DNA of 64,000 bases. Origin: an uncultured Candidatus Poseidoniales archaeon (GTDB taxonomy: Archaea > Thermoplasmatota > Poseidoniia > Poseidoniales > Thalassarchaeaceae). A program made the position numbers and the translations under genes. Shown here piece after piece: positions 14,530 to 47,412 of this stretch; position 1 is the first letter of the stretch, and every line of letters begins with the position of its first letter. Below the pieces are notes generated by a model, which was given only the letters and a program-made list of their open reading frames with translations, did not search any database and was not told the DNA's origin. The stretch lies in contig CABXDN010000004.1 in assembly GCA_902511005.1 (NCBI GenBank), forward strand, positions 28,404-92,403. The letters are read 5' to 3'.

Positions 14530-15488
14530 TTAATCAAATTAGAGTAGGTAGGCAGAGTGCAATAAGAATTTTTGCTCAAGAATATTCTGATTCAAATCTT
14601 CCTTTGGAAGGAGTAGGAGAATACGCCCCCTCATTCATTATTACTAAATTAGGTGCAAAAGTTAATCGCGCACTTTTCGGAGGCGTAATTGATAGATTTG
14701 AAAGAAGAGATGGTGACAATGGCCCTTCTTATTCCGGTCAATTAAGAGATGCCACAGGTGGAGTTCACCGTTTCCAAATAGCTCCCTTTCAACCAGAATT
14801 ACATGCTGATGCTGAAGAACTTCTTGCACGATTTGAGTCGGGTGACCGATTTCTTATGATGATGGTAGGTCGTGCACGATGGTTTGAAAGTGATGATGGA
14901 GGGATTTTCACATCTTTCCGCGCAGAAGAATTTTGTATAGTTGAGAGAGAAGTTTATGTTAATTGGTTAGTTGAAACTTCTGAAGCAACATTGAGAAGAT
15001 TATCTGCATACTCGGCATCATTAGGTTCGGATAATAACTCAGAAGCCCTAGAGGCTTCAGGAGTTCCTTCCGACTTAATTGAAGGAATGATTCTAGCCAA
15101 AGACCACTACGGCGCTTTTGATCCAGAAAGCTACAGAGTAGGTGTATTACAGGGTCTCTCAATGGCTCTGAATTCTAATGGAGAAATTGAAACTATGATG
15201 GCATCCTCTGAGAGTACACGATCAGATAGTGATTTAGACAATCCCACATCGAGTGTCTCAGTAGCAGAAAAACCTAAGTTGGAACCTCAAGGTGATGTTG
15301 AAGATTTAATTCTAAATGTAGTAAGAAATTCATCAGATGTTAATGGTATACCATATGACTCGATTGTCCTTGCTTGTACAGAAGCAGGATTCTCGAGGGA
15401 ATCCTCTGAAGATGCAATCGAAGACTTAAGGGATATAAAGTGTCAAATTATTGAACCTAGGTTTGGATTTTTCCAAATTCTTGACTAG
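14526..15488 (+). CDS. RPA32-like small subunit, with an OB fold and a C-terminal winged helix.
   Basis: Its start overlaps the upstream stop as ATGA (14526-14529). An N-terminal OB-fold-like region (GVIDRFERRDG...GQLRDATGGVHRF) is followed by an Asp/Ser-rich linker and a C-terminal wH-like segment (GIPYDSIVLACTEAGFSRESSEDAIEDLRD). Confidence 0.55.
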   Translation: MINQIRVGRQSAIRIFAQEYSDSNLPLEGVGEYAPSFIITKLGAKVNRALFGGVIDRFERRDGDNGPSYSGQLRDATGGVHRFQIAPFQPELHADAEELLARFESGDRFLMMMVGRARWFESDDGGIFTSFRAEEFCIVEREVYVNWLVETSEATLRRLSAYSASLGSDNNSEALEASGVPSDLIEGMILAKDHYGAFDPESYRVGVLQGLSMALNSNGEIETMMASSESTRSDSDLDNPTSSVSVAEKPKLEPQGDVEDLILNVVRNSSDVNGIPYDSIVLACTEAGFSRESSEDAIEDLRDIKCQIIEPRFGFFQILD

Positions 15489-16450
15489 TTATTTTTTCTT
15501 TCTGCGAGTAAATTATCTATTTTTGATAACTTGTCTCTTACTCTATCTATTGCCCCCGAATCACTTAGGTCAATTTCTGTTGATGAGTTCATTTTCGCAC
15601 CTTTAATTTCTGCAATATTAGTCGCTACCAATACTAATTTATCTCTTACTTTATCATTAGATAATGGCCATCCTCTCCTCGTTGCGAGCCTGAGGAGTAA
15701 ATCGCTCTCCTTTTCCCCCCAAAAACCTTCATGACTTCTAATAATTGTACTTATCATCCGATCCAAATCTTCAATTCTTGCTTGTATGGTTAAGATATCT
15801 CCTTGAGTTGTAAAGTCAGAATTCTCAAAGCCTATCAGTAGCGAATCATGTGCATCTTCTAGTGCTGCACTAGATGCAATATTTATCTCAACTTCTTGTT
15901 TTTGATCTAAATGTGGAAGTTCAACTGATTTTATTCGTTCATTTAATTCCGAAGTTCCATTTGGATTGTTAGCAATATTTAAAATTCCATTTCTCCTTAA
16001 ACTTCTTTTTATCCTTCCCCATGCGTTAAATTGGCTTGTTAATACTCCTGCAACTCTTCCCATTAATATGGTTCTATTTCCGGTTAGTGGCAGTTCTAGG
16101 TGTTGGCACATAACGTGCAATTTTTCTCTATCTAGTTCAGCTAATCTTTCAATTGTCATTCGTCTTGAATCAAAATTCAGATGTAACCATAATCTCTGTC
16201 TTCTTTCTTTATGGGAACCTGATGATTTAATCCCAAATATTTTCAAAACTTCGCCAATTTCTTTATGAGGCATCGACTGAATTCCGTCCCAAGATAAATC
16301 TAGATTATCAAGGATTTGATATTGAATTAATCTTGCTCTAAGTACTTCTACAGAGCCGGATTTACTAAGTTCAAAACCTTCTGCTTTTTGTCTCAGTGAC
16401 ATCAGACGAGATCGGTATAGGTCATCTAGTAATACTTCGTCAACCTGCAA
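15485..16450 (-). CDS. SAP-domain-containing protein of unknown function.
   Basis: 321 aa. An N-terminal SAP-like helix-loop-helix (LSKSGSVEVLRARLIQYQIL) is followed by a second similar unit (RLAELDREKLHVMCQHLELPLTGNRTILMGRVAGVL). The C-terminal half is coiled-coil-like. Confidence 0.4.
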   Translation of the reverse strand: MQVDEVLLDDLYRSRLMSLRQKAEGFELSKSGSVEVLRARLIQYQILDNLDLSWDGIQSMPHKEIGEVLKIFGIKSSGSHKERRQRLWLHLNFDSRRMTIERLAELDREKLHVMCQHLELPLTGNRTILMGRVAGVLTSQFNAWGRIKRSLRRNGILNIANNPNGTSELNERIKSVELPHLDQKQEVEINIASSAALEDAHDSLLIGFENSDFTTQGDILTIQARIEDLDRMISTIIRSHEGFWGEKESDLLLRLATRRGWPLSNDKVRDKLVLVATNIAEIKGAKMNSSTEIDLSDSGAIDRVRDKLSKIDNLLAERKNN

Positions 16451-20570: not shown

Positions 20571-20656
20571 AGTGATTAGTGTGATACAGTTTAGGTTGCT
20601 TATCGGTTATTATCATATACTAATTTTAGGTCGACAATGATATACAGGTGCTGAAT

Positions 20657-20971
20657 ATGTCTAGGGAAGATGTTTTACGTTCAATTAAAAATGCAGAAAT
20701 AGCGGCCACTGAGACGCTATCAGATGCAAAAAAAGAAGCAGCATTCATAATTTCTCAAGCAAGACAAAATGCATCAGAAATTTTGACATCCGGTCGTTCA
20801 GACTCCGAGTCTAACGCCCAAGGTTTGATTTCAAAAGCGCGCGAGAGTGCTGGTTCTGAAGCAGAAGTCGTTTCAAACGACGGAAAAGTTGCACAGAAAA
20901 GTATTCATGATTCTGGGATTAAAAATCGTCAAAAGGCAGAAAAAATTGTAATTGACGCTTTTAGGAATTAA
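20657..20971 (+). CDS. atpH: A1Ao ATP synthase subunit H.
   Basis: First gene of a colinear H-I-K-E-C-F-A-B-D operon. It begins MSREDVLRSIKNAEIAA and is a small alpha-helical Ala/Glu-rich stalk protein. Confidence 0.7.
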   Translation: MSREDVLRSIKNAEIAATETLSDAKKEAAFIISQARQNASEILTSGRSDSESNAQGLISKARESAGSEAEVVSNDGKVAQKSIHDSGIKNRQKAEKIVIDAFRN

Positions 20972-20997
20972 TTTTAATTATTTTGGAGGTTAAAATC

Positions 20998-23094: not shown

Positions 23095-23125
23095 TATCAC
23101 ATTCCAAGTGTAATGCTTAGAAAAA

Positions 23126-23446
23126 ATGGAGGAAAAAAATATGAATAACAGAAATAAAATGAGAGGAATGAGTATGTTGCTAACATTATCGTCAATTGTG
23201 ATGATTGCTAGCAGCGTTCAGGCGGAAGACAATGCATCTACAGAAGCTGCATATGCAAACATCGGTGCAGGTATTGCACTAGGTTTAGCAGGAATTGGAA
23301 CTGGCTTAAGCCAAGGGCCAATTGGAGCTGCTGCTGTAGGAATGATTGCAGAAGATAGCAGTAAGTTCGTTAACGGACTAATCTTCACTGCTCTACCTGA
23401 GACAATTGTCCTTTTCGGATTTCTTGCACTATTCTTGCTCGGATAA
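23126..23446 (+). CDS. atpK: A1Ao ATP synthase subunit K (c/proteolipid). It is a single hairpin with an N-terminal hydrophobic extension.
   Basis: Gly-rich helix GAGIALGLAGIGTGLSQG and the ion-binding Glu (ALPETIVLFG) are present. An extra N-terminal segment MLLTLSSIVMIASSVQAEDNAS resembles a signal peptide. Confidence 0.85.
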   Translation: MEEKNMNNRNKMRGMSMLLTLSSIVMIASSVQAEDNASTEAAYANIGAGIALGLAGIGTGLSQGPIGAAAVGMIAEDSSKFVNGLIFTALPETIVLFGFLALFLLG

Positions 23447-23499
23447 GCAGAATTTTGTAGGTTCCTATAATGAATAATTAAAACACGAGGTGTAATGAA

Positions 23500-34347: not shown

Positions 34348-34525
34348 ATTACTCTCGATGGGGGGGCTCTGAATGAATCTTCGCTTATTTTTCCGGTTAA
34401 CGGCCTAAAATAAGAGGTCTATTTTTCGCTCTGCTGCGCTCTTGTCCTCCTCAATGTTCATAGACGGAAATGCGGCAGCCAACTAATGATGTCGGCGAGA
34501 AATTGCTGATATTATATGGTGATGG

Positions 34526-37500
34526 GATGCATCTAGTAAGAATTGAACTTGAAAATTTCAAATCATTTGGTGGACAAATAATTATACCATTTGAGGAGGG
34601 ATTCACTGCAATAACAGGCCCTAATGGTTCAGGGAAGTCTAATTGTGGAGATGCTATACAATTTGTTTTAGGGCCTAAATCTACTCGTTCTCTTCGTGCA
34701 TCTAATGTTTCAGAATTAATATTCAACGGTGGAGGCGGAGGGAAAGCTGCTCGAAATATGTCTGCAACGCTTGTTTTTGAAAACTCGCCCGAATCTGATG
34801 GTCGCCGTAGATTAAGAATTGATACCGAAGAAGTTTCATTTACGCGTTCAGTCAGATTAAACCGTAAAAACGATACGATTTCATCATATTACATCAATGG
34901 TAATCCTTCTACTGCCACTGAAATGAGGAGAGTTTTGGCTGAAGCAGGCCTACATGGCGATGGTTACAACATTGTATTGCAAGGAGATGTCACGAATCTG
35001 GCCTCTATGACTCCTCACAAAAGGAGAGGAGTCCTTGAAGAAGTAGCTGGGGTGACTGCTTATGACGATGAAATACGTCGTGCTAATAATCAACGTAAGG
35101 TAGTCGAAAACAATATTGAAACTATCGATTTATTTGAAGAAGAACAAAAAACAAGGCTAAAAGGTTTGGAAAAAGAGCGCCAACAGGCATTGAAATTTAA
35201 AGATCTGAAAGATGAATTAGATTTGAACAAGGTAGTCCTTCAACAATCTAGGCACCGTAATAGATTAGATGAGGTCAGACTTTTGGGCGAGGAGCGTTCA
35301 AGTTATTCTGAACAAATCACTGGCCTCACAGAGAATATAAGGGCTGGGAATCAAAATCTAGGCAACTTCGATGAAGAACTTGTACAAATTGGAAATGATT
35401 TAGATGATATAATGAGCGGAGACGCGAGAGAATTACTAGATACTATTCGTCAACATGAAATTGATATCGAAACTAATTCTGACAGAGTAGGCGATCAATT
35501 GAAAATTATCGAATCTACTGAAGAAGATATTGAAATTATTCGAGAAGATTATGAAAGCGCAGAGAATGCAAGGGAGTCTGGTCAAGAAGAGTTGAATCAA
35601 GCCAAGGAATCTTTATTGAAAGCAGACTCTGATCTTATTCAGGCTGCTTCTGACGAGAAACAAGCAAGGGAGGCAATCCAGTCAGGAGATAGACATGGTC
35701 GTGATTTAAATCGTGCACTTGGTCAAGCAACCGACTTAGTTGCAGAAAAGCATCAAGAGTATTCTATTGCTAGATTAGAATCAGATAGGGCGGAGCAAAC
35801 TGCTCAAATTTCCTCCGAAAAACTAGCAGATTTGGAAGAAGAATACGAACAAGCGACACTTAATAGAGATGATTTAACATTAGTCGGAGAAGAGATTCAA
35901 GGTGGTGGAGGACAGGTAGACCGAACTGCTTTGGCGAATGAATTACAAAGATTAACTAAGCAAGAAATTGGATTGCGTGAAGATCGAGATCGCTCTGAAG
36001 TTAAGGCTAGAGATGCAGAAGTTGAATTGGCAAAGGCCAGAGCAAGACAAGAAGCCAAAGCAAATAGGCCAGGGTCGGCTATAACTATAGCTGCTCTAAC
36101 AAAATTAAGGCAGAGCGGAGAGATTAAGGGCATTCTTGGCACATTAGGTGAGTTATGTTCTCCAAAAGATGCAGCGCATGAAGATGCATTAGCATTAGCG
36201 CTAGGGAATGGTTTGAGGAGCATAGTAGTCACTAATGACGAAGTTGCAGCCGAGTGTATCAAGTGGCTTCGACTTAATGTTGGAGGGCGTGCAACATTCT
36301 TACCTCTAAATAAATTGAATGTATCTAGGCCACAAGGAAGGACATTAATTGTCGCTAGAAATCAGGGAGTCCTTGGTTTTGCTCATGATTTACTAGATTA
36401 TGACTTAGAAGTCGATATTGCAGTTAGATATGCCTCTAGAAATACCCTGATTGTACAATCAATGGATGTGGCACGAAAGAATATGGGCGGTGTCCGCATG
36501 GTTACACTGAAAGGAGATATCATCGAAGGTTCAGGTGCAATGACTGGAGGTTCTCCTGCAGGCTCTTCAAGGCCGCGTTTCGGGGGGGGCAGTCCGGGGC
36601 AACTAGGTTCTGAGAGGCTTGAGAGATCAGTTGAAGAAGCGAATCTAATTTATTCAACTGTTGAAGCAGCATTAAGAGAATTACGTACTAATCAACAGAA
36701 ATTACGTGATCAAATCCATGGTCTAGACGATAGTGATCAATCGGTTAAGATACGTGAGTGGAAATCTGATCTTTCACGTGCGCAGAAAGATGTTGATGAG
36801 ATAGGTAAAAAGATTATATCTGCTAGAGATGAATTCTCACGTGTTGATAAATTATTCATTTCATCTAAGGAAGCGGCCGATAAAGCGAATCTGGATCATG
36901 AAGAATCGCTCAAATCAAGATCTGACGCCGCTACTGCACTTCAAAATCATACACCCGATCATCTTTCAGAAATATTAAGGAACGCAGAAAAAACAAGGAC
37001 AGATGCTGAAAGGACGAAGATTGTATCCGATGCTGCAATTCTTAATGGGACTGAAAGAATGGATATTCTTTCGAATAGGTTGTCTGAACTTTCCAGACAA
37101 ATAAACAATAAAGAAAAATTAATTTCTGACGCTAGGGAGGCAATAGTTTCTCTGCAAGAATCTATAACTAATTCTCAAGAGTTATTGGTGGACTTAAAGG
37201 GACAATCTTCACAATTTGATGAAGAACAGCAAATTCTAACCCAACGTCGAGAAATAATTATTGAAGAGAGAGCGAGTTTAAGGGCTACTCTAGATTCACA
37301 TTCTCAGAAACGTGAAACATTAACCTCAAGGATTGAAGAATTGAATATTCAAATCCAACAAAAAAGAGCGGCAGTGAATGAAATTGTCGCAGAATTAGCA
37401 GATGCGGAAATCGACGTACCATCTGCTGACATCCAATTACCCACTGTGGCCGAGGCGGAAAGAGTAGTGCAGGGACTCGAACGTCGCCTCGGTCATCTAG

Positions 37501-38459
37501 GTGATGTCAATATGTTAGCTATAGAGCAATACGACATTGCAGTCGAACGTGTAGCTGGGCTAATAGAAGATGGAAAAATACTCCGGCAAAGGCGTGACGA
37601 CCTTGTAGGTATTGCAGATAGACTTGAATCTGAGAGGAAAAAGAGGCTTCTCCTAGTATTTGAACACGTAAATAGAAATTTCAGTCGTGTGTATGCGCAG
37701 TTACAACCCGGTGGAATAGGTAGTCTTCGGTTAGAGAATCTAAAGAATCCATTTGACGGAGGTCTTGAGATGGACTGCGTACCTCCTGGTAAGAATAGTA
37801 AAACTCGTAGAAATTTATTATCAGGTGGTGAAAAATCGATGGCTGCTCTAGCCCTAATATTCGCGATACAAGATTACGAGCCAAGTCCATTCTATTATTT
37901 CGATGAGGTTGATCAAAATTTAGATCCATTTAATTCTGAATTAATTGCTGCACTTTGTTTAATGCGTTCACAAAGGGCGCAATTCATCATGGTCACATTA
38001 AGAAAAGTCAGTTTGAATCTCGCTAATCACCATATCGGTATCACCCATGCAGGTGATGGATGTAGTCGCCGAATAACTGATTTCGATCGTGCTGCTGCGC
38101 TACAGATGAGTGAAGAGATGGAAAAAGAAGAAGCCGCTCGAAAACAGTCAGAAACTGAACGTTCAGAATTAGTATTACCTGATCCTGAAAAGATGCCACG
38201 AGTCCCTGAGCCTCTTGGGACTCCTAAGTCATTAGGGGGTCTGGCGGAAAGGGCAGGTTTAGATATTGATGAATCCGAGGTAGATGAGATAGGTGAAGAA
38301 TCTTCAAAAACTGGGGATTTAATCGCATTAAGGGAAAGAACTGAAGATTGGACTGAAGATATTGAGGAAGCTGATATAATTCAAAATGCATTGGTCGATG
38401 AAGAAAATCTCAAGAATAGTAATGACGAGGTTACTTCACCTGAAGTAGAAATTGAGTGA
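34526..38459 (+). CDS. smc: Chromosome segregation protein SMC, with a roughly 140-aa acidic C-terminal extension.
   Basis: N-terminal Walker A head MHLVRIELENFKSFGG...ITGPNGSGKSN. Long coiled coils and a hinge region are present. The C-terminal head carries the signature LSGGEKSMAALALIFAIQDYEPSPFYYFDEVDQNLD. Start is the ATG at 34526, downstream of the track start. Confidence 0.9.
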
Positions 38460-40089: not shown

Positions 40090-41382
40090 TTAATCTCCTC
40101 TAATCTTTAATAGTGCTGCTTCAACAGTTGCCATAGTTATTCTTTCACCACTTTCTTTGACCATATTAGCAACTAAATCAATTTCTTCATCCTTTGCACC
40201 CGCCGAACTTATCATATTCTTTAGATGTAATTTCATATGTCCTGCCTGTATTCCTACGGTGGCTAATGCTCTGAGTGCACCTAAATTTTGCGCCATCCCT
40301 GCTGCTGCCATTACTTTAGCCAAATCATTAGCGCTCTTTATCCCTAAAAGCGCTACATTTGCCTGAGCTCCAGGGTGTATTCTTACCGCTCCGCCTACAA
40401 GTCCTACAGCCATTGGGCATTCGATAGATCCAACTAAATTACCATCTGAATCCTTTTCCCAATGTGTCATTGAGGTATATTGTTTTTCATGTGCACAATA
40501 TGAATGAGCGCCTGATTCTATTGCACGCCAATCTTGTCCACATGCGATTGCTATAGGGGAAATAGCATTCATTATACCTTTGTTGTGAGTAGTTGCTCTA
40601 AACGGATCTGCAGCTGCAAAATGATATGCTTGTAATACTCCTTCAATTACTTCTGAACCTTGACTTGCTTCTCCTTTGTCTGACATTTCTTCAGGGGTAA
40701 AAGTTGCACTAACTCTAGCTAACCGGTGTATTGCCAAATTACTAATAATTCTCAAGATAACCGTTCCTTTCGATAATGATTCTATCTTAGGTGCAATAGT
40801 TTCAGCCATTGTATTTACTGCATTTGCTCCCATTGCATCTCTACAATCTACAAGGATATGGACAATAACCATTGGTCCAGACATGGTTTCTATTATTCTC
40901 ACTTCAACATCTTTACAACCACCTCCGAACTTTACTAAAATTGGATCGACATCATTACACGACTGAATCAGTTCGTCTTTTGCTGCAAGAATCAGATCTC
41001 TTGATTCTTCTGGATTTTCGCATCCAACGATTTGTATTTGGCCAATCATTATCGGGTCAGTATTATCTGATCTAAACCCGCCTTTAGCCTGGCATCTCTT
41101 TGCCATGTTAGATGCTGCAGCCACTACGCTCGCTTCTTCTACTACGAACGGAACTAGATAGTGTTCATCATCTATGATAAAATTCGTTGCTACTCCTATG
41201 GGTAGGGAATATCTTCCAACGACATTTTCAATCATCCTGTCTGCAGTGTCTTCTGATAATTCCGCATCTGCCCAAGCGTTAGTCTGTTCTTCAGTCAAAC
41301 CAGCTATATCTGCTAATTTCTGTCTTCTTTCAGGCACTGATAGTTTGTAAAACCCTTTCAATCGACTGTTATCTACTGGCAT
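40090..41382 (-). CDS. hmgA: Hydroxymethylglutaryl-CoA reductase, class II.
   Basis: 430 aa. ENVVGRYSLPIGVATNF matches the class II ENVIG / PxGVAxNF motifs. DAMGANAVNTMAE is also present. The size is class II. Confidence 0.9.
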   Translation of the reverse strand: MPVDNSRLKGFYKLSVPERRQKLADIAGLTEEQTNAWADAELSEDTADRMIENVVGRYSLPIGVATNFIIDDEHYLVPFVVEEASVVAAASNMAKRCQAKGGFRSDNTDPIMIGQIQIVGCENPEESRDLILAAKDELIQSCNDVDPILVKFGGGCKDVEVRIIETMSGPMVIVHILVDCRDAMGANAVNTMAETIAPKIESLSKGTVILRIISNLAIHRLARVSATFTPEEMSDKGEASQGSEVIEGVLQAYHFAAADPFRATTHNKGIMNAISPIAIACGQDWRAIESGAHSYCAHEKQYTSMTHWEKDSDGNLVGSIECPMAVGLVGGAVRIHPGAQANVALLGIKSANDLAKVMAAAGMAQNLGALRALATVGIQAGHMKLHLKNMISSAGAKDEEIDLVANMVKESGERITMATVEAALLKIRGD

Positions 41383-41554
41383 GTTTCCACCATTCTTTGG
41401 CAGAGCATACTACTTGTAATCTCTTTGCTTTATTCTAGTCTAATCGACTCTTTTATCCGGTTGAGAGTTAAGGGGCAGTATTGTTCATTTTTATTGAATA
41501 TTATTTACTTAATGTCTAATGAAAATCAAATTTTCTTATATTTCGAATGAATTA

Positions 41555-41720
41555 AAGCGTTAATAATGTTGTTAACGGGTTGTTAACGTGTCTAAAAAGC
41601 GTTAATAAAGCGTTAATAATTAATGGAATTAAATGCTTTATTAGTTTATTTTCGTATTTTTTATTCCGAATCTGATTTTTAATACGTTAATTTAGATGAA
41701 AATAAGCGTAATAATGCGTG
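41555..41720. repeat. Array of short direct and inverted repeats with a CGTTAA / GTTAAC core, next to an extremely AT-rich tract. It is a candidate origin or operator array.
   Basis: AAAGCGTTAATAA occurs at 41555-41567 and 41597-41608. AGCGTTAATAA is at 41609-41619. A degenerate AAGCGTAATAA is at 41704-41714 and ACGTTAAT at 41684-41691. Tandem GTTGTTAACG lies at 41568-41577 and 41579-41588. Upstream, 41470-41550 is about 80% A+T. Confidence 0.6.
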
Positions 41721-41753
41721 AACATTATGAACTAGTAGTATCTCACGTTGAAT

Positions 41754-43706
41754 ATGTCTGCCGCAGGGGTTAGTATGCTAGACTTACCTTCCGTAAGGGG
41801 CAATCCCTTCGACAACAGACCTATTGAAGCATCTCGTGCTCACGATCTAGTCGGAAGGCAAAAAATACTTCACCGATGGAGAGACCATATTCTCTCAGGC
41901 TCACCCAGAATGATATTGCTAGTTGGGGAACCAGGTTCAGGTCGCACATCAATGATTAACACCATATCTTCTCAAACACCAAAGAAATATATTGGTCAGT
42001 TTTTGTCAGATGACGACGACCAAGTCCGTACAGTATTACATGAAATCGTAACTCACTTTGGTTCATTCCAGCCAATACCTACAATGAATCAATTATCCCA
42101 AAAGTTAGTTTCTATTCTTGATGAAGAAAAGGGTCCGTTGCCTCTTATTGCATTAGACTATCCTTCTCGGGCAACCGACATCAATATTTTTCTTTCAAGA
42201 ATTTCTCCGATACTATCTAGATTAAGGGCCATGATTATAGTGACTATTACTGAATCTCAACTCCTAGAACTCGACTTAGAACTCAAAGAAATGTTTGATG
42301 AACCAGAGAGGATACCTAATTTTACTAAAAAAGAGATTCAAGAAATGGTAAATAACAGAATGAGAATTAAATCCAAAGAGAAATGGAATATTAATTCTAA
42401 AATCCTTGAATCAATTCACTCCAGCACTGGAGGAAATCCTCGCGAAGTAATCAAGATATTGAAATGCTTAGTTGACGAGAAAAGAGAGCTGGGTTATGAT
42501 GGGACTTTAGAGAACTTAATGGCATGGCAAAATCAAACACCGCCTAGTGCCGAATCAACAGTGATTAGTCCACCCTCTACTACAGAGGAAAATAAAGTAG
42601 AAATAACTCCGATTATTAATTTTGAAACAAATAAAATAGATGAGTTGATCGAAGATGATGATGATTTTATCGTTGATGAAGAACCTTTAGATATGTGGGA
42701 TGAGGATGATGATAATGATGATGATGAAGACCCGATTTGGTCCGAAAGTTTCTCATTCGAAGATAATATCGAGAGTCCTGCAGAAGATACAAACATTATT
42801 GATGTTAATCTTCATCATAGAATTTCAGAACTTGAAGAAGAGGAGAATGTGGACTCCATTCCCTCAACAGAACCCCTAATCCCTAAAATAAATTCTGAAC
42901 CTATCTTGGAGACCGAATTATTTATGCAACCGGGTACTGAACCACCTAAAAGTTCAATTTCTGGGGGTGCATTTGGTGGTTTGCGTGCACGTCTCGCAAA
43001 GACATCTTCTGATATGATTGAAAATGAGATTAGTGATGTTCCAATAACTTATGCAGACACACCTCAATCTCAACCGACCTTAGATCGATTCGTAGATAGT
43101 CATAAACTAGTCCAAGATAAAAAAACTATTGCCGAATTACCGAATTACTCTAATGCCTCTTTCGATAGTAATGTCGAACCCAGCAATTATGACCGAGTAA
43201 TGAGTGATGAAGGTGCCGAATGGTCGGTAGCACCTCCTTTCTCATCTACTTTACCTGAATCCTCATTTGAATCTGATGTGATCCCCTCAAATTCTGATTC
43301 TGAACATAAGGATCCAATCCAGTCAGAAGCAACTTTTTTTGAAGAGTTCAATGAGCCCGAAGAAATAATTCAGCCGGTCCCAGCAAATTCTCACGAATTA
43401 TCTTCTATCCCAACTGATAAATTAATTCCTAATTTCTCAAATTTTGAACCAAGATGGGACCCCGACCGCCCTTTGGATACTGCGCGTTTTTATTTATTAT
43501 CGGATGCTGAAAGATTAATTTTACAAATATCATCAATAAGAGAAATATCTCCCTCTGATGATGAATTACAAGCCCGATTAGAAGTAGGTAGGCCACGTTT
43601 ATCCCAACTTTACAATAGTTTACATAAATCAGGCCTACTATCAGTAAGAAAACAAGGTCGAACACGTTTATTCAAATTAAGCAATGCTGCTGCTGAAGAA
43701 TTTTGA
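41754..43706 (+). CDS. Divergent Orc1/Cdc6-like AAA+ protein with degenerate Walker motifs, a long acidic disordered insert and a C-terminal winged helix.
   Basis: The N-terminus LVGRQKILHRWRDHILSGSPRMILLVGEPGSGRTSMI follows the Orc1/AAA_16 pattern. The Walker A Lys is replaced by Arg (GSGRTS). The Walker B position reads LIALDY, so DE has become DY. A sensor-2-like TGGNPREVIKILKCL is present. Residues about 260-560 are Asp/Glu/Ser/Pro-rich low complexity (DDDDFIVDEEPLDMWDEDDDNDDDEDP). The C-terminus LSQLYNSLHKSGLLSVRKQGRTRLFKL is wH-like. Confidence 0.55.
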   Translation: MSAAGVSMLDLPSVRGNPFDNRPIEASRAHDLVGRQKILHRWRDHILSGSPRMILLVGEPGSGRTSMINTISSQTPKKYIGQFLSDDDDQVRTVLHEIVTHFGSFQPIPTMNQLSQKLVSILDEEKGPLPLIALDYPSRATDINIFLSRISPILSRLRAMIIVTITESQLLELDLELKEMFDEPERIPNFTKKEIQEMVNNRMRIKSKEKWNINSKILESIHSSTGGNPREVIKILKCLVDEKRELGYDGTLENLMAWQNQTPPSAESTVISPPSTTEENKVEITPIINFETNKIDELIEDDDDFIVDEEPLDMWDEDDDNDDDEDPIWSESFSFEDNIESPAEDTNIIDVNLHHRISELEEEENVDSIPSTEPLIPKINSEPILETELFMQPGTEPPKSSISGGAFGGLRARLAKTSSDMIENEISDVPITYADTPQSQPTLDRFVDSHKLVQDKKTIAELPNYSNASFDSNVEPSNYDRVMSDEGAEWSVAPPFSSTLPESSFESDVIPSNSDSEHKDPIQSEATFFEEFNEPEEIIQPVPANSHELSSIPTDKLIPNFSNFEPRWDPDRPLDTARFYLLSDAERLILQISSIREISPSDDELQARLEVGRPRLSQLYNSLHKSGLLSVRKQGRTRLFKLSNAAAEEF

Positions 43707-43715
43707 GGGATAAAT

Positions 43716-44012
43716 ATGTCAGATAATGGGAATATAGTTACAAGGAAAAAAGTTGAAGATTATCTTGCTTTAACGGCTGAAGCCAGAATCAAAGCAACTC
43801 CTATTACTAATAATGATGAGGATGAAAAAAGATTGAATTCCATGCTTAGAATGTGTGATGATTACCAACATGATGCTCGTTATTTTATGAATGAAGGGGA
43901 CCTAGTTCGTGCTTTCGGAGCGATAAATTATGCCCATGCATGGATTGATGCTGCGGTAAGAATAGGCTTAATGGATGGGCATGATGATGATCGCTTATTC
44001 ACATTACCTTAA
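43716..44012 (+). CDS. Small conserved-looking hypothetical protein (98 aa), possibly of a DUF357-like archaeal family.
   Basis: It starts 10 bp after the Orc1-like stop on the same strand. The C-terminal AFGAINYAHAWIDAAVRIGLMDGHDD reads like a conserved helical core. The family assignment is from memory only. Confidence 0.35.
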   Translation: MSDNGNIVTRKKVEDYLALTAEARIKATPITNNDEDEKRLNSMLRMCDDYQHDARYFMNEGDLVRAFGAINYAHAWIDAAVRIGLMDGHDDDRLFTLP

Positions 44013-44401
44013 TTATGAATTAAACGCAGAACATTTCTTGAAGTTACTTCAATATATGATCCTCCATTATTTATCAATCTCTCTTTCAATCTCCTGTCTA
44101 CAGTTAGTACTGGCCAGCCATTTTTTGTAGATAAATCGAGTAACATCCCATCAGTGTGCCTAATTCCTTCTGGTGCCTCAATAAATTCTGACTTCCTATC
44201 TAATAAATCTAATAACAAACCTTTGCGGTGATTTGATAGCGAAATCAACTCTTCTCTAACTTTTGATAAAAGAAGATATTTTGGTTTTCCAATTACTTTA
44301 CTCATAGAAACATCTAGATTTAGGCCAGCATCAATTAATGCAGCCCATCCACAAGCGTCTATTAGGACGCAATTCATTGATTCACCCCAAAATAGTTCCA
44401 T
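44009..44401 (-). CDS. PIN-domain protein (VapC-like fold). It belongs to the conserved archaeal aIF2-gamma neighbourhood.
   Basis: 130 aa. The N-terminal acidic residue sits in a beta-strand (CVLIDACGWAALIDAG), and the C-terminal TVDRRLKERL is typical of PIN. It overlaps the aIF2-gamma 3' end by 20 nt. Confidence 0.55.
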   Translation of the reverse strand: MELFWGESMNCVLIDACGWAALIDAGLNLDVSMSKVIGKPKYLLLSKVREELISLSNHRKGLLLDLLDRKSEFIEAPEGIRHTDGMLLDLSTKNGWPVLTVDRRLKERLINNGGSYIEVTSRNVLRLIHN

Positions 44402-45626
44402 GACCTATTAAACGCCATCTGGAACCTACTCTTCTCGATAATGTAATTCTACTACCCACTTTAGCACAAATAGGCAATCTAAGAGAAATTTTTGATACCT
44501 TTCCTTTCTTAGCAACTGTTCCTACTGATGTAGCGGTAGCTGAATTTATCATTAACATCTCATTCATTGATAATGGTCGAACAGGATCTGAACCTCCATC
44601 TCCACCGGCAACCATCTTCTCTAGTAATTCCAGTTCTAGTTCTAATGTCTGCCATATTGGTGGTAATTCGCCTTCTTTTGCCATGACTTGACCGGATAAC
44701 TCATCGGCCTTTGTAGCGACAGGATCGAGAGGTGTAGCGATACCACAAAGTCCTCCTGCATGTGCAGTTTCAAGATTTATTCCTCCTCCTTTAATACTCT
44801 CAATATAAGTTTCAAGTGGTTCCCATCGAGTTTTATTTCCTTCTTGTATTCTTCTTCCTGGGGCAATCATTATCTTATCTCCGACATTGAAAGATCCCTC
44901 GACTATACTTCCTCCGATAATACCGCCTGATAGTTCGTTTGGGCGAGCTCCTGGGCGATTGGTATCGAAAGATCTAGCTACATACATCAAACCAACATCT
45001 TCTTGTGAACGATCAGGAGTTGGGATAGTATGTTCAATTGCTTGTATTAAGACATCTAGGTTTACATCATGATGAGCCGAAATAGGTATTATAGGGGCTT
45101 CTTCAGCTATAGTTTCCTTAACGAAATCTTTGATTTCATTATATGATTCCATCGCCCTCTCTTGTGAAACTATATCTATTTTATTTTGCACGATTACAAT
45201 ATTTTTGATTCCTGCAATTTGTAATGCTGCTAAATGTTCTCTTGTTTGAGGTTGAGGGCACTTTTCGGTAGCAGAAATCAGCAACAATGCCCCATCCATT
45301 ATGGAAGCCCCAGATATCATTACTGCCATCAGAGTTTCGTGACCTGGTGCGTCAACAAACGAAACAACTCTCAATAGATCTTTATCGGAATCTTTCTTAC
45401 CTTCAGGATGCTTTCCTTTAGCATAATATTCTCCATCAACTGTCGAATAGAATGTAGTATCTGCATAACCAAGTTTGATGCTGATGCCTCTCTTTCTCTC
45501 TTCTGAATGAGTATCAGTCCAAGTACCAGAAAGAGCTTGTGTTAGCGTCGTTTTACCATGATCGACATGTCCGACCATACCAATATTTACTTCGGGCTGT
45601 CTTTTAATCTCAGCCAGAAGCATCAT
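44382..45626 (-). CDS. eif2g: Translation initiation factor aIF-2 gamma subunit.
   Basis: G1 motif VNIGMVGHVDHGKTTL. DAPGHE, NKID and SAH G-motifs are present. 414 aa. Confidence 0.95.
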   Translation of the reverse strand: MMLLAEIKRQPEVNIGMVGHVDHGKTTLTQALSGTWTDTHSEERKRGISIKLGYADTTFYSTVDGEYYAKGKHPEGKKDSDKDLLRVVSFVDAPGHETLMAVMISGASIMDGALLLISATEKCPQPQTREHLAALQIAGIKNIVIVQNKIDIVSQERAMESYNEIKDFVKETIAEEAPIIPISAHHDVNLDVLIQAIEHTIPTPDRSQEDVGLMYVARSFDTNRPGARPNELSGGIIGGSIVEGSFNVGDKIMIAPGRRIQEGNKTRWEPLETYIESIKGGGINLETAHAGGLCGIATPLDPVATKADELSGQVMAKEGELPPIWQTLELELELLEKMVAGGDGGSDPVRPLSMNEMLMINSATATSVGTVAKKGKVSKISLRLPICAKVGSRITLSRRVGSRWRLIGHGTILG

Positions 45627-46206: not shown

Positions 46207-47412
46207 TCATCTTTGTAGATCCATCTCAATCCTAGTAGCAAGATTTGCAGGCGCTACATTGTTCATTGTTATGTACTGCGTTCTTCCTCTTCCAATGTTT
46301 GATTTATCGTTTCTTGTCTCAATTAATCCCTCATTTTGGAGTAATTTTAGATGTTTCCAGAATGTAGTATGGCTCTTAGGTTTCGATTCATATTCTTCAC
46401 ATACTAAGTGATATAATTTCTCTGCATCTCCTGTATTTATTTCTGATTCCTTCTTCAATCTTCTACATAAGCCGAGCATAATTAATTTTTGATCTTTAGA
46501 AAGGCCGTCTACTTGACTCGGTTCTATAGAAGCTGTTCTCACTGAACTTTGTTCGATATCGCTGATTAAGACTTCTCCTCTACCTGCAGACTCTGCTTTT
46601 CTAATTGCAGAATCAAGTAATTCTATTGCTAATCTTGCATCGCCTGAATCGCTTGCCATAGTTCCAATTTTTTCAAGAATTTCTTCACTTATTGACCCAC
46701 TTCTACAGGCAATGTCGGCTCTTTGTCTTGTAATTTCAATGAGTCCTTTCTTGTTATATGGCCTTAGTTGTAAGATATTACTAGCCCCTAATCTAGAGAT
46801 TATCGCTGGCTCAAATAATTTTAGTAACATTGAATCCTGACTTACTAGAATTAGTGATAATGAACCTTGTCTTTCTTGACTCTCATCTATCCGTAAGAGT
46901 TTGTATATTAAATCGAAATTATCCCTTCTAACCAACGCGTCTACCTCATCTAATACGAGTAAAAGATGATTATTATGAGTTCTTAGATTTCTTCGTATCG
47001 ATTGGATTATTTCACCCGAACTTAATCCTCTTTCTGGATGCCCAGAATCTAGAGATATCGCTATTTGTTGTAAAACCTGAGACGTAGAGGGGTTATTTCT
47101 GCAGTTAACATGCGAATAAGAAATTTTTCTTTTACCTTCTAAATGCTTTAACAAATCCTGTCCAAAGCGCCTACTCAGAACCGTTTTACCAGATCCAACA
47201 GGGCCCGTAATCACTGCTCTACAACTTGAATTATGATTCTCTATATGGGAAAACATACTTGCGAGTTCACTTAATTCTTTATCTCTACCTACTAGATTAT
47301 TAGGTGTCCAATCAAACGAAATCGGTTCTCTATTGATTAGGATTTTACCCGCGCCTATCCGGTCGAGGTATCCTGACATTAATTTGCTATTTATTCGGTC
47401 GTTCTTAGACAT
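46207..47412 (-). CDS. orc1: Orc1/Cdc6 replication initiator, canonical.
   Basis: Walker A GPVGSGKT, Walker B LLLVLDEVDAL, sensor 2 ARLAIELLDSAIRKA and a C-terminal winged helix. 401 aa. Confidence 0.9.
   Translation of the reverse strand: MSKNDRINSKLMSGYLDRIGAGKILINREPISFDWTPNNLVGRDKELSELASMFSHIENHNSSCRAVITGPVGSGKTVLSRRFGQDLLKHLEGKRKISYSHVNCRNNPSTSQVLQQIAISLDSGHPERGLSSGEIIQSIRRNLRTHNNHLLLVLDEVDALVRRDNFDLIYKLLRIDESQERQGSLSLILVSQDSMLLKLFEPAIISRLGASNILQLRPYNKKGLIEITRQRADIACRSGSISEEILEKIGTMASDSGDARLAIELLDSAIRKAESAGRGEVLISDIEQSSVRTASIEPSQVDGLSKDQKLIMLGLCRRLKKESEINTGDAEKLYHLVCEEYESKPKSHTTFWKHLKLLQNEGLIETRNDKSNIGRGRTQYITMNNVAPANLATRIEMDLQR

What the first reader, a model, noticed from the sequence alone, without database searches (positions are those of the whole stretch)
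41754..44012. Degenerate Orc1/Cdc6 paralog with a giant acidic insert, plus a tightly linked small protein, next to the repeat array
The 650-aa protein has an Orc1-like AAA+ N-terminus. The Walker A lysine is replaced by arginine (GEPGSGRTS) and the Walker B reads LIALDY instead of hhhhDE, so ATP hydrolysis is probably impaired. A roughly 300-aa Asp/Glu/Ser/Pro-rich disordered region follows (runs such as DDDDFIVDEEPLDMWDEDDDNDDDEDP), then a C-terminal winged helix. Ten bp downstream is a 98-aa protein with a conserved-looking helical core. A canonical Orc1/Cdc6 with intact motifs lies 2.5 kb downstream on the opposite strand. An ATPase-dead initiator paralog beside origin-like repeats could be an origin-specific regulator or decoy, a second initiator for a distinct origin, or the sensor of an uncharacterised system. 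I do not recognise this exact architecture.
Basis: partly seen in the sequence, partly recalled or inferred. Interest (0 to 1): 0.7.

Follow-up and report, generated by a model that had tools for sequence, protein, structure and literature searches.

The report
Hydrolysis-dead Orc-like DNA-binding protein with box array
A conserved, unnamed single-copy gene of the abundant marine archaea Poseidoniales (Marine Group II) encodes an Orc/Cdc6-like nucleotide-binding domain whose catalytic residues are replaced family-wide, a 300-residue acidic disordered linker and a DNA-binding winged helix, and it sits beside a conserved array of phased 8-bp boxes that it most likely binds.

Summary
A 650-aa ORF (41754-43706) has an AAA+ domain with GSGRTS and LIALDYP motifs, a 301-aa acidic disordered linker and a C-terminal winged helix. 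A 98-aa gene follows it, and a canonical Orc1/Cdc6 lies 2.5 kb away.

This is not decay. The K-to-R and E-to-Y changes are family-wide (119/120 and 120/120 homologs). dN/dS is 0.04 for the AAA+ domain. The gene is syntenic in all 80 Poseidoniales genomes fetched and in more distant Thermoplasmatota.

The 98-aa protein is DUF357, a near-universal archaeal core gene, so it is probably not a specific partner.

The "repeat array" is real. There are 6-7 RCGTTAAY boxes per intergenic region, about 650-fold enriched, usually 11 bp apart, at fixed distance from this gene's start and overlapping a TATA-like element.

Best reading: a nucleotide-binding, non-hydrolysing site-specific DNA-binding protein that assembles on its own upstream boxes and autoregulates. 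A role at a non-canonical replication origin is not excluded.

The parts
41383..41753 (.). Intergenic region between HMG-CoA reductase (minus strand) and the target gene. It carries the conserved RCGTTAAY box array and the putative core promoter.
   Evidence: GCGTTAA is present in 77/77 orthologous intergenic regions. Density is 12.5/kb inside against 0.019/kb outside over 1.15 Mb. The region is 264-439 bp long in Poseidoniales.
41557..41564 (+). Box 1 (GCGTTAAT), about -197 from the ATG.
   Evidence: the position is conserved (histogram).
41571..41578 (-). Box 2 (CCGTTAAC on the minus strand). It is degenerate in this genome and reads GCGTTAA in most orthologs.
41582..41589 (-). Box 3 (ACGTTAAC on the minus strand), 11 bp from box 2.
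41599..41606 (+). Box 4 (GCGTTAAT).
41610..41617 (+). Box 5 (GCGTTAAT), 11 bp from box 4.
   Evidence: Eleven bp is the dominant same-strand spacing (151 pairs).
41684..41691 (+). Box 6 (ACGTTAAT), about -70 from the ATG.
41706..41733 (+). Proximal element GCGTAATAATGCGTGAACATTATGAACT. It holds two GCGT half-boxes abutting or overlapping a BRE/TATA-like ATTATGAA centred about 24 nt before the ATG. It is the putative core promoter and operator.
   Evidence: Found at a fixed distance (78-80 nt upstream of the RGNPF codon) in 48 of 49 loci where the pattern was found.
41754..43706 (+). Target gene, 650 aa: AAA+ plus lid, acidic disordered linker, ArsR-type winged helix.
41778..41828 (+). Invariant N-terminal motif LDLPxxRGNPFDxRPIE. 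The NPF core is shared with some of the canonical AAA+-wHTH relatives (P0228, P0238).
41925..41951 (+). Walker A with Arg in place of Lys (GEPGSGRTS).
   Evidence: R in 119/120 close homologs and in most distant members.
42144..42164 (+). Walker B without the catalytic Glu (LIALDYP). The Asp is invariant.
   Evidence: DY in 120/120 close homologs. Where the Walker B motif was found in distant members it reads D[YFLHVMCTSA]P, never DE.
42429..42443 (+). Sensor-2-like motif GGNPR. It aligns with GNPRE of the canonical relatives and corresponds to GDAR of Cdc6.
   Evidence: G229, P231 and R232 are invariant; alignment.
42537..43442 (+). Acidic disordered linker of about 300 aa with conserved short motifs: EEPxDxW (42678-42698), GTEPP (42930-42947), FGGLxxRL (42972-42995), PITYAD (43038-43058), EGAxWxV...STLP (43209-43259). 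A further motif, PxWxxDxPLD (43446-43478), lies just past the linker, before the winged helix.
   Evidence: pLDDT below 50 except for islands at aa 410-420 and 480-503. Invariant columns in A1. Composition. dN/dS 0.27-0.38.
43479..43703 (+). C-terminal ArsR/SmtB-type winged helix-turn-helix. The recognition helix is RPRLSQLYNSL.
   Evidence: Profile against PDB: BigR 1.9e-5, ArsR 1e-4, HlyU 5e-4. Modelled as H-H-H-strand-strand with pLDDT 84-92. dN/dS 0.03.
43716..44012 (+). DUF357 gene (98 aa), co-oriented and probably co-transcribed. It is a universal archaeal core gene and probably not a dedicated partner.
   Evidence: Pfam PF04010 62.5 bits. PDB 2oo2 and 2pmr. Directly downstream in the Poseidoniales loci that extend past the target gene (79 of 80; L077 ends before it). 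Separated from the target by gene X in other lineages. Core-gene status from PMC12680538.
46207..47412 (-). Canonical Orc1/Cdc6 (context only). It is flanked by only 46-54 bp of non-coding DNA.

Best explanation
The gene encodes a lineage-specific, single-copy core protein of Poseidoniales and related marine Thermoplasmatota. It is a very divergent member of the Orc/Cdc6-like AAA+-winged-helix superfamily.

Its P-loop, Walker B Asp, sensor-1 Thr and sensor-2 Arg are invariant. The catalytic Lys is Arg and the catalytic Glu is absent. It most likely still binds a nucleotide but does not hydrolyse it, so the AAA+ module acts as a conformational or assembly module rather than a motor (inferred).

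The nearly invariant ArsR-type winged helix most likely recognises the RCGTTAAY boxes. These occur, essentially uniquely, as a phased array of 6-7 sites upstream of its own gene (inferred from co-occurrence and geometry). Boxes 11 bp apart lie on one face of the helix, which suggests cooperative assembly of several protomers, as with DnaA-box or ORB arrays.

The proximal boxes abut a BRE/TATA-like element about 24 nt before the start codon. Binding there should autoregulate the leaderless target-DUF357 transcript, and possibly the divergent HMG-CoA reductase gene (inferred).

The roughly 300-residue acidic linker, with its conserved aromatic/acidic short motifs, would tether partner proteins or modulate DNA binding (speculative).
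For: Family-wide substitutions:
- R in 119/120 and DY in 120/120 close homologs.
- Distant members keep GSGRTS and D-x-P.
- Invariant G60, G63, G65, T67, S68, D137, T168 and R232.

Purifying selection: dN/dS is 0.036 for the AAA+ domain, 0.03 for the wHTH and 0.27-0.38 for the linker.

Fold:
- pLDDT 84, pTM 0.80.
- Foldseek top hits are Orc1/Cdc6.

Transitive homology:
- A2 against canonical AAA+-wHTH relatives: 99.7%, E 5e-27.
- Those relatives against Cdc6: 97.6%, E 3e-12, including the wH.

The wHTH is ArsR-type.

Boxes:
- Present in 77/77 intergenic regions; 311 copies inside against 22 outside in 1.15 Mb.
- Only 4 GCGTTAA in the 64 kb window, 3 of them here.
- 11-bp spacing in 151 pairs. 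The array-to-target-start distance has sd 9 bp, against 40 bp to HMGR.
- The proximal element sits at a fixed distance in 48/49 loci.
- The same inverted CGTTA arrays lie upstream of the gene in distant lineages, down to about 25% identity.

One syntenic locus was found in each of the 80 species genomes fetched.

Precedent: Orc1-2 of Saccharolobus is an Orc1 homolog that acts as a transcription regulator switched by ATP binding (PMC9738581).
Against: - No binding experiment exists. The link between boxes and protein rests on adjacency and co-conservation, and the whole 18-kb neighbourhood is syntenic, so linkage alone is weak.
- ArsR-type regulators normally bind inverted repeats as dimers, not phased direct repeats.
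- An upstream array of five boxes 140-200 bp from the start is more elaborate than simple autorepression needs.
- Only 64 kb (window) and 18 kb (loci) per genome were searched, so other box clusters (a regulon) or their absence genome-wide are unknown.
- Nucleotide binding by an Arg-containing P-loop is assumed, not shown.
- No conserved arginine finger was seen, so AAA+-type oligomerisation is uncertain.
Confidence: 0.5

Rival explanations
1. The intergenic region is the chromosomal replication origin of Poseidoniales, or one of its origins. The boxes are non-canonical ORB equivalents. The protein is an origin-specific factor: a permanently nucleotide-locked initiator, co-initiator or regulator that works with the nearby canonical Cdc6. 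This would mirror the usual archaeal pairing of an origin with the adjacent initiator gene.
For: - The AAA+-wH architecture is Orc-like, with Cdc6/Orc1 as best structural matches.
- The gene lies 2.5 kb from the canonical Cdc6, which has only 46-54 bp of non-coding DNA on either side.
- No canonical ORB occurs in the 64 kb window or in 80 loci.
- This is the largest true non-coding gap in the window. The other apparent gaps hold a tRNA or small ATP-synthase genes.
- The array is unique in all sequence examined.
- The box phasing resembles DnaA/ORB arrays.
- In this genome the spacer between boxes 5 and 6 is very AT-rich.
- In Methanomassiliicoccales the origin lies at orc1/cdc6.1 near the ATP-synthase genes, and those genes are also in this window (PMC4153887).
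- ATP-bound, non-hydrolysing Orc1-1 is replication-proficient in Sulfolobus (PMC3607249).
Against: - The region is short: 264-439 bp, and 242-274 bp in sister lineages.
- In higher-GC genomes the spacer is not markedly AT-rich.
- The boxes flanking the spacer are in direct, not inverted, orientation.
- The geometry is fixed relative to the gene start, with a TATA-like element, which a promoter/operator explains.
- No replication data or whole-genome skew could be obtained. Within the window, skew simply follows gene orientation.
Confidence: 0.22
2. The boxes are bound by a different factor, and the protein acts elsewhere. It could be a scaffold or adaptor whose acidic linker recruits partners, or a chromosome-organisation factor linked to the neighbouring SMC-ScpAB operon. 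Its position next to the boxes would then reflect only the frozen synteny of this region.
For: - The whole block SMC-ScpA-ScpB/HMGR/target/DUF357/PIN/eIF2gamma/S6e/Cdc6 is syntenic wherever the fetched contig covers it. Adjacency is therefore not specific.
- The conserved short motifs in the linker imply protein partners.
Against: - The array keeps a fixed distance to this gene's start, not to HMGR.
- The wHTH is the most conserved part of the protein (dN/dS 0.03), matching a very conserved DNA motif.
- Boxes are present in every lineage examined that has the gene.
Confidence: 0.15
3. The gene is a decaying, pseudogene-like Orc1/Cdc6 copy specific to this genome.
For: Only the substitutions of the canonical catalytic residues.
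Against: - The substitutions are shared by 119-120 of 120 homologs and by distant lineages.
- dN/dS is 0.036 in the AAA+ domain.
- The ORF is intact and syntenic in most of the 80 loci; in five (L069, L074, L075, L077, L080) tblastn matched only part of it.
Confidence: 0.01
4. It is the sensor or effector of an uncharacterised defence or stress system (STAND/AAA+-type).
For: Weak nSTAND1, AAA_16 and DS41-like similarities in the target and its relatives.
Against: - The only PADLOC hit is mad8 at E 0.0018, which is not significant.
- It is a single-copy core gene in a frozen housekeeping neighbourhood, not a variable island.
- There is no effector domain.
Confidence: 0.03

Closest known systems
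Archaeal Orc1/Cdc6 initiators (e.g. S. solfataricus Orc1-1/Orc1-3, PDB 2qby; A. pernix ORC1, 2v1u)
   Same: - Order of domains: AAA+ core, lid, then a C-terminal winged helix.
- Best structural matches.
- Sensor-2 Arg motif in the lid.
- The gene lies beside an array of short repeated boxes.
   Different: - No match to the Orc1/Cdc6 or Cdc6_C models.
- Walker A Lys is Arg and the Walker B Glu is lost.
- A 300-aa acidic linker is inserted between lid and wH.
- The wH is ArsR-type.
- The boxes are RCGTTAAY, unrelated to the ORB consensus.
Orc1-2 of Saccharolobus islandicus (non-initiator Orc1 homolog, DNA-damage regulator; PMC9738581)
   Same: An Orc-like AAA+-wH protein used as a sequence-specific transcription regulator, with nucleotide state as the switch.
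   Different: Orc1-2 has intact ATPase motifs, and loss of hydrolysis is lethal. It controls a genome-wide regulon, has no long disordered linker and belongs to a different lineage.
Bacterial DnaA with DnaA-box arrays and dnaA autoregulation (own knowledge)
   Same: An initiator-clade AAA+ domain plus a DNA-binding domain. Arrays of about 9-bp boxes with helical phasing lie next to its own gene and serve both autoregulation and origin function.
   Different: A different DNA-binding fold. DnaA hydrolyses ATP and has an arginine finger. No evidence here for DNA unwinding.
Eukaryotic ORC subunits with degenerate ATP sites (Orc2, Orc3; PDB 7jgr, 5uj7) (own knowledge for motif states)
   Same: Orc-family AAA+ folds that have lost catalytic residues yet remain essential structural or DNA-binding subunits.
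   Different: Those act within a hetero-hexamer. There is no evidence here for complex formation with Cdc6.
ArsR/SmtB winged-helix regulators (BigR 3pqj, HlyU 4k2e)
   Same: The recognition-helix region (xRLSQxxNxL...G...R) matches by profile (E 1.9e-5).
   Different: Those are small dimeric repressors without AAA+ domains. The score here is below the NCBIfam cut-off (22 against 55 bits).

Membership tests
Orc1/Cdc6 replication initiators (TIGR02928; Pfam Cdc6_lid PF22703, Cdc6_C PF09079) | Significant match to the family's sequence models | tested here: not met
   No Orc1/Cdc6, Cdc6_lid or Cdc6_C hit at E<=1 (Pfam) or <=0.01 (NCBIfam). hhalign against Poseidoniales Cdc6 gives only 65% over 97 columns. 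The neighbouring gene scores 218 bits.
Orc1/Cdc6 replication initiators | AAA+ core plus lid fold of the initiator type | tested here: met
Orc1/Cdc6 replication initiators | Catalytic Walker A GKT/S and Walker B DE | tested here: not met
   GSGRTS and hhhhDY, family-wide.
Orc1/Cdc6 replication initiators | C-terminal Cdc6-type winged-helix domain directly after the lid | tested here: not met
   The wH is separated from the lid by about 300 disordered residues. It matches ArsR-type, not Cdc6_C, profiles.
Orc1/Cdc6 replication initiators | Binds ORB elements and recruits MCM at an origin | not testable with these tools
   No canonical ORB is nearby. The origin position in Poseidoniales is unknown.
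Broader Orc/Cdc6-like AAA+-wHTH superfamily (remote homology) | Profile-profile homology over AAA+ and lid to canonical AAA+-wHTH proteins that are themselves homologous to Cdc6 | tested here: met
   A2 against A6: 99.7%, E 4.8e-27, 234 columns. A6 against Cdc6: 97.6%, E 3.4e-12, 324 columns. Caveat: the A6 members were chosen from hits of the A2 profile.
ArsR/SmtB wHTH regulators (NF033788, PF01022) | Match to the family model above cut-off | tested here: inconclusive
   NF033788 scores 22.4 bits against a cut-off of 55. A profile of the C-terminus hits BigR, ArsR and HlyU chains at 1.9e-5 to 1e-3.
DUF357 (PF04010), for the 98-aa gene | Match above the gathering score | tested here: met
   62.5 bits against 29.4. 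PDB relatives are 2oo2 and 2pmr.
Known anti-phage defence proteins (PADLOC) | Match to a defence-system model | tested here: not met
   Only mad8 at E 0.0018, 15.8 bits.

The most novel reading that the evidence does not exclude
The box array is the replication origin of Marine Group II archaea, or a centromere-like unique chromosomal site. The protein would be its dedicated, permanently nucleotide-locked Orc-like specifier. It would replace canonical ORB/Cdc6 recognition and use its long acidic linker motifs to recruit the replication or SMC machinery.
Probability: 0.2. Interest if true: 0.85.

Novelty: new variant of a known kind. Interest (0 to 1): 0.6.

Why it matters
Poseidoniales are among the most abundant archaea in the surface ocean and have no cultured representative, so nothing is known experimentally about how they replicate or regulate their chromosome.

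This gene is a conserved, unannotated core gene. Public records call it 'hypothetical protein', 'ArsR family regulator' or 'ExeA'. It comes with a precisely defined candidate DNA target, which makes it directly testable by EMSA or DAP-seq with recombinant protein, and by read-depth origin mapping in metagenomes.

It also offers a natural example of an Orc-like AAA+ domain kept under strong selection after losing its catalytic residues. That bears on how nucleotide binding without hydrolysis is used as a switch in initiator-type proteins.

If the box array turns out to be the origin, it would define a non-canonical archaeal origin-initiator pair. It would also give a landmark for growth-rate (peak-to-trough) estimates of these organisms.

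Tried and rejected
- Canonical ORB search (TTCCAGTGGAAAC, up to 3 mismatches) gave chance-level matches in the window. In the 80 loci there were only scattered single hits.
- A scan of viral contigs for GCGTTAANNNNGCGTTAA returned 120 or more unrelated contigs. That is what chance gives for 14 specified bases in a collection of that size, so it was not pursued.
- The afdb50 fold library was unavailable.
- Direct phmmer and profile searches against PDB sequences gave only P-loop-level hits: midasin, Rpt3, RFC and Cdc6.
- Literature searches for Poseidoniales/MGII with Orc1, origin or GC skew found no description of this protein or of the MGII origin.
- PADLOC was negative.
- Gene X of the sister lineages has no homolog in the window or in the Poseidoniales loci.
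- GC skew within the window follows gene orientation and is uninformative for the origin.
- The sigma-70 promoter scanner was not used because archaeal promoters are not covered.
- Two apparent large intergenic regions (20571-20982 and 23095-23499) turned out to hold small ATP-synthase genes.
Full report
**Observation**

The window is archaeal. Around the finding lie SMC (34470-38459), ScpA, ScpB, HMG-CoA reductase (40090-41382, minus strand), the target ORF, a 98-aa ORF, then a PIN_9 protein, aIF2-gamma, S6e, a canonical Orc1/Cdc6 (46207-47412, minus strand) and Dph2.

The target ORF runs 41748-43706 from a TTG. All the sequence features reported are present:
- GEPGSGRTS at aa 60-68
- LIALDYP at aa 133-139
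- a 301-aa linker with 24% D/E, 5% K/R and net charge -58
- a C-terminal winged helix
- the 98-aa ORF starting 9 nt after the stop codon
- the canonical Cdc6 2.5 kb away, with GSGKT, DEVD and GDAR motifs

**Not a decaying copy**

A search of 5.8 billion proteins found 198 relatives, all from marine metagenomes or MAGs labelled Euryarchaeota, Methanobacteriota or Thermoplasmatota.
- Among the best 120, 119 have Arg at the Walker A lysine position and all 120 have DY after the Walker B strand.
- A profile search of 1.84 billion cluster representatives extended the family to members of 500-1000 aa with only about 25% identity. These mostly keep GSGRTS, have D followed by a non-acidic residue and Pro, never have DE, and keep the C-terminal wHTH.
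- Invariant columns include the P-loop glycines, T67, S68, D137, T168 (sensor-1 position) and R232 in a GGNPR motif that corresponds to the GDAR sensor-2 motif of Cdc6.
- Against the two closest orthologs, dN/dS is 0.036 for the AAA+ domain, 0.03 for the wHTH and 0.27-0.38 for the linker.

The altered site is the selected state of the family. From established AAA+ mutagenesis (own knowledge), a Walker A Lys-to-Arg change and loss of the Walker B Glu usually leave nucleotide binding intact and abolish hydrolysis. I infer a nucleotide-binding, non-hydrolysing module.

**Fold and family placement**

An AlphaFold2 model of residues 1-265 built with a 17-sequence alignment has pLDDT 84 and pTM 0.80. 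It shows a five-stranded AAA+ core plus a four-helix lid, with two helices between strands 2 and 3.
- Foldseek also puts A. pernix ORC1 and S. solfataricus Orc1-1 first, with RFC close behind.

By sequence the protein matches no Orc1/Cdc6 model. Pfam gives only sub-threshold AAA_16 and AAA_22. NCBIfam gives weak RFC-large, ArsR and TIGR03015 hits far below cut-off.

Profile-profile comparisons gave:
- target against the Poseidoniales Cdc6 family: 65% probability over the first 97 columns
- target against a set of 360-440-aa AAA+-wHTH proteins with canonical GKT and DE motifs, found just beyond the family: 99.7%, E 5e-27 over the whole AAA+ and lid
- that canonical set against Cdc6: 97.6%, E 3e-12 over 324 columns, including the winged helix

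The canonical set was chosen from hits of the target profile, so this test is not fully independent.

The C-terminal domain matches ArsR/SmtB-type regulators (BigR 1.9e-5, ArsR 1e-4, HlyU) and not Cdc6_C.

The protein is therefore best described as a very divergent member of the broad Orc/Cdc6-like AAA+-winged-helix superfamily. It is not a recent paralog of the neighbouring Cdc6.

The full-length model confirms that residues 264-565 are predicted disordered. Small higher-confidence islands coincide with conserved short motifs. The wHTH is confidently folded. Conserved linker motifs (EEPxDxW, GTEPP, FGGLxxR, PITYAD, ALWxV..STLP) and PxWxxDxP just before the winged helix persist across the family.

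**Distribution and context**

In one genome per GTDB species, 114 stretches encode a relative. The 80 loci fetched are all Poseidoniales, covering both MGIIa and MGIIb labels.

Wherever the fetched contig covers it, the loci share the same order: SMC-ScpA-ScpB, HMG-CoA reductase on the opposite strand, a 264-439-bp intergenic region, the target, DUF357, then PIN, aIF2-gamma, S6e, Cdc6 and Dph2 on the opposite strand.

The four more distant Thermoplasmatota lineages examined keep this order. One of them is on a 2.06-Mb contig. In these lineages an additional 345-349-aa gene without any Pfam match lies between the target and DUF357, with overlapping stop and start codons.

DUF357 is one of the 76 archaeal single-copy core genes used for phylogenomics (PMC12680538). 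It is far more widespread than the target family. The 98-aa gene is thus probably co-transcribed but is unlikely to be a dedicated partner.

Public annotations of family members are 'hypothetical protein', 'ArsR family regulator', 'winged helix-turn-helix transcriptional regulator' or 'ExeA'. No paper describing the family was found.

**The repeat array**

The intergenic region upstream of the target carries copies of (A/T)GCGTTAA(T/C), with core RCGTTAAY.
- GCGTTAA occurs in 77 of 77 orthologous intergenic regions, 311 times in 24.9 kb. Outside, it occurs 22 times in 1.15 Mb of flanking sequence, a roughly 650-fold enrichment, with no second cluster.
- In the 64-kb window there are four GCGTTAA, three of them here. 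Five of the eight RCGTTAAY matches are also here.

The layout is conserved:
- one box on the plus strand near -200
- two on the minus strand near -185 and -175
- two on the plus strand near -158 and -147
- a spacer of about 70 bp
- one box near -70
- a proximal element GCGTnAnnAnGCGTGAAYATTAWGWA

Adjacent same-strand boxes are 11 bp apart in 151 cases. The distance from the array to the target start is tight (sd 9 bp), while the distance to the HMGR start varies (sd 40 bp).

The proximal element lies 78-80 nt upstream of the RGNPF codon in 48 of 49 loci where it was recognised. This puts an ATTATGAA-like sequence about 24 nt before the ATG. That is the expected place for an archaeal TATA box of a leaderless transcript (own knowledge of archaeal promoters), with GCGT half-boxes over the BRE position.

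The distant lineages also carry inverted arrays of TAACG...CGTTA 100-165 bp upstream of the gene.

**Mechanism**

The most economical reading has five steps:
1. The nearly invariant wHTH recognises these boxes.
2. Several protomers assemble on one face of the DNA.
3. Binding at the proximal boxes autoregulates the gene.
4. The AAA+ module, locked in a nucleotide-bound state, serves assembly or sensing.
5. The acidic linker motifs recruit partners or modulate DNA binding.

Shown by the data are the conserved architecture, the selection on it, the box array and its geometry. Inferred are who binds the boxes, the effect on transcription and the nucleotide chemistry.

A precedent for an Orc1 homolog acting as a transcription regulator switched by ATP binding is Orc1-2 of Saccharolobus (PMC9738581).

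**Is it an origin?**

Arguments for:
- The Orc-like architecture, and the general archaeal habit of pairing an origin with the adjacent initiator gene.
- The canonical Cdc6 has no room for ORBs next to it, with 46-54 bp of flanking non-coding DNA.
- No canonical ORB occurs in the window or in the 80 loci.
- This is the largest true non-coding gap in the 64 kb. The other apparent gaps hold a tRNA or small ATP-synthase genes.
- In Methanomassiliicoccales the origin lies at orc1/cdc6.1 near the ATP-synthase genes (PMC4153887). The ATP-synthase operon is also in this window.
- Hydrolysis-deficient, ATP-bound Orc1-1 remains replication-proficient in Sulfolobus (PMC3607249).

Arguments against:
- The region is short.
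- The spacer is not AT-rich in higher-GC genomes.
- The boxes flanking the spacer are in direct orientation.
- The promoter-like geometry is already explained without an origin.

Whole-genome skew and coverage data were out of reach. I give this reading about 0.2.

**Verdict**

The family is an undescribed variant of Orc/Cdc6-like AAA+-winged-helix DNA-binding proteins. It is conserved as a core gene across a globally abundant archaeal order and has a well-defined candidate binding-site array. It is not a pseudogene, not a defence gene, and not demonstrably an initiator.

Noticed in passing
L081:9863-10912; L082:10010-11056; L083:9684-10721; L204:9845-10885: In non-Poseidoniales relatives, a 345-349-aa gene with no Pfam or NCBIfam match sits between the target gene and DUF357, with overlapping stop and start codons (apparent operon). 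Its C-terminus is a conserved helical AEDEGxLSxAVELYGALGR motif. It has no homolog in the window or in the Poseidoniales loci.
   Followed up: partly
window 20657-20970 and 23142-23447 (and about 20.6-32 kb overall): Two apparent 400-bp intergenic gaps hold small ORFs that look like A-type ATP synthase subunits H and K (proteolipid). The ATP-synthase operon lies 10-20 kb from cdc6, as reported for the origin region of Methanomassiliicoccales (PMC4153887).
   Followed up: partly
window about 41640-41650 and the equivalent position (about -110) in orthologous intergenic regions: A short (G/T/A)TACTG(A/T) element recurs in the spacer between boxes 5 and 6 in many Poseidoniales loci (e.g. gtactgtaag, ttactgagag). 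It is not a CGTTAA box and its function is unknown.
   Followed up: no
window 15979-16030: A tandem repeat of 2.1 copies of TTAAAATTCCATTTATCC lies directly next to the only GCGTTAA outside the target's intergenic region. Both are inside a minus-strand ORF (15485-16450).
   Followed up: no
window 44009-44401 / 44382-45626: The PIN_9-domain ORF overlaps the start of aIF2-gamma by 20 nt, and its stop overlaps the DUF357 stop region. DUF357-PIN-aIF2gamma-S6e forms a compact, conserved block, which suggests DUF357 belongs functionally with translation or ribosome genes.
   Followed up: no
L038 (PAQG01000020.1); protein P0368: Two public records carrying this archaeal locus or protein are labelled as bacteria (Acidimicrobiaceae bacterium; Planctomycetaceae bacterium). 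These are probably mis-binned contigs.
   Followed up: no
L204 (ERZ28548065, contig of 2,064,030 bp, locus at 1,055,357-1,073,201): In a probably complete genome of a distant lineage, the locus lies at 51-52% of the contig length. The sample label reads 'chicken_3', which is odd for a marine-type lineage. This could be coincidence.
   Followed up: no
L015, L025, L060, L076 (between DUF357 and PIN); L034, L040, L063, L073 (between Cdc6 and Dph2): Some genomes have 0.4-3 kb insertions at these two junctions in an otherwise frozen gene order.
   Followed up: no
proteins P0107, P0128-P0130, P0174, P0179, P0181, P0188: A minority of family members have Lys at the Walker A position. In every one of them where the Walker B motif was found, the Glu is still absent. 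The K/R state has therefore flipped more than once, while loss of the catalytic Glu looks universal.
   Followed up: partly
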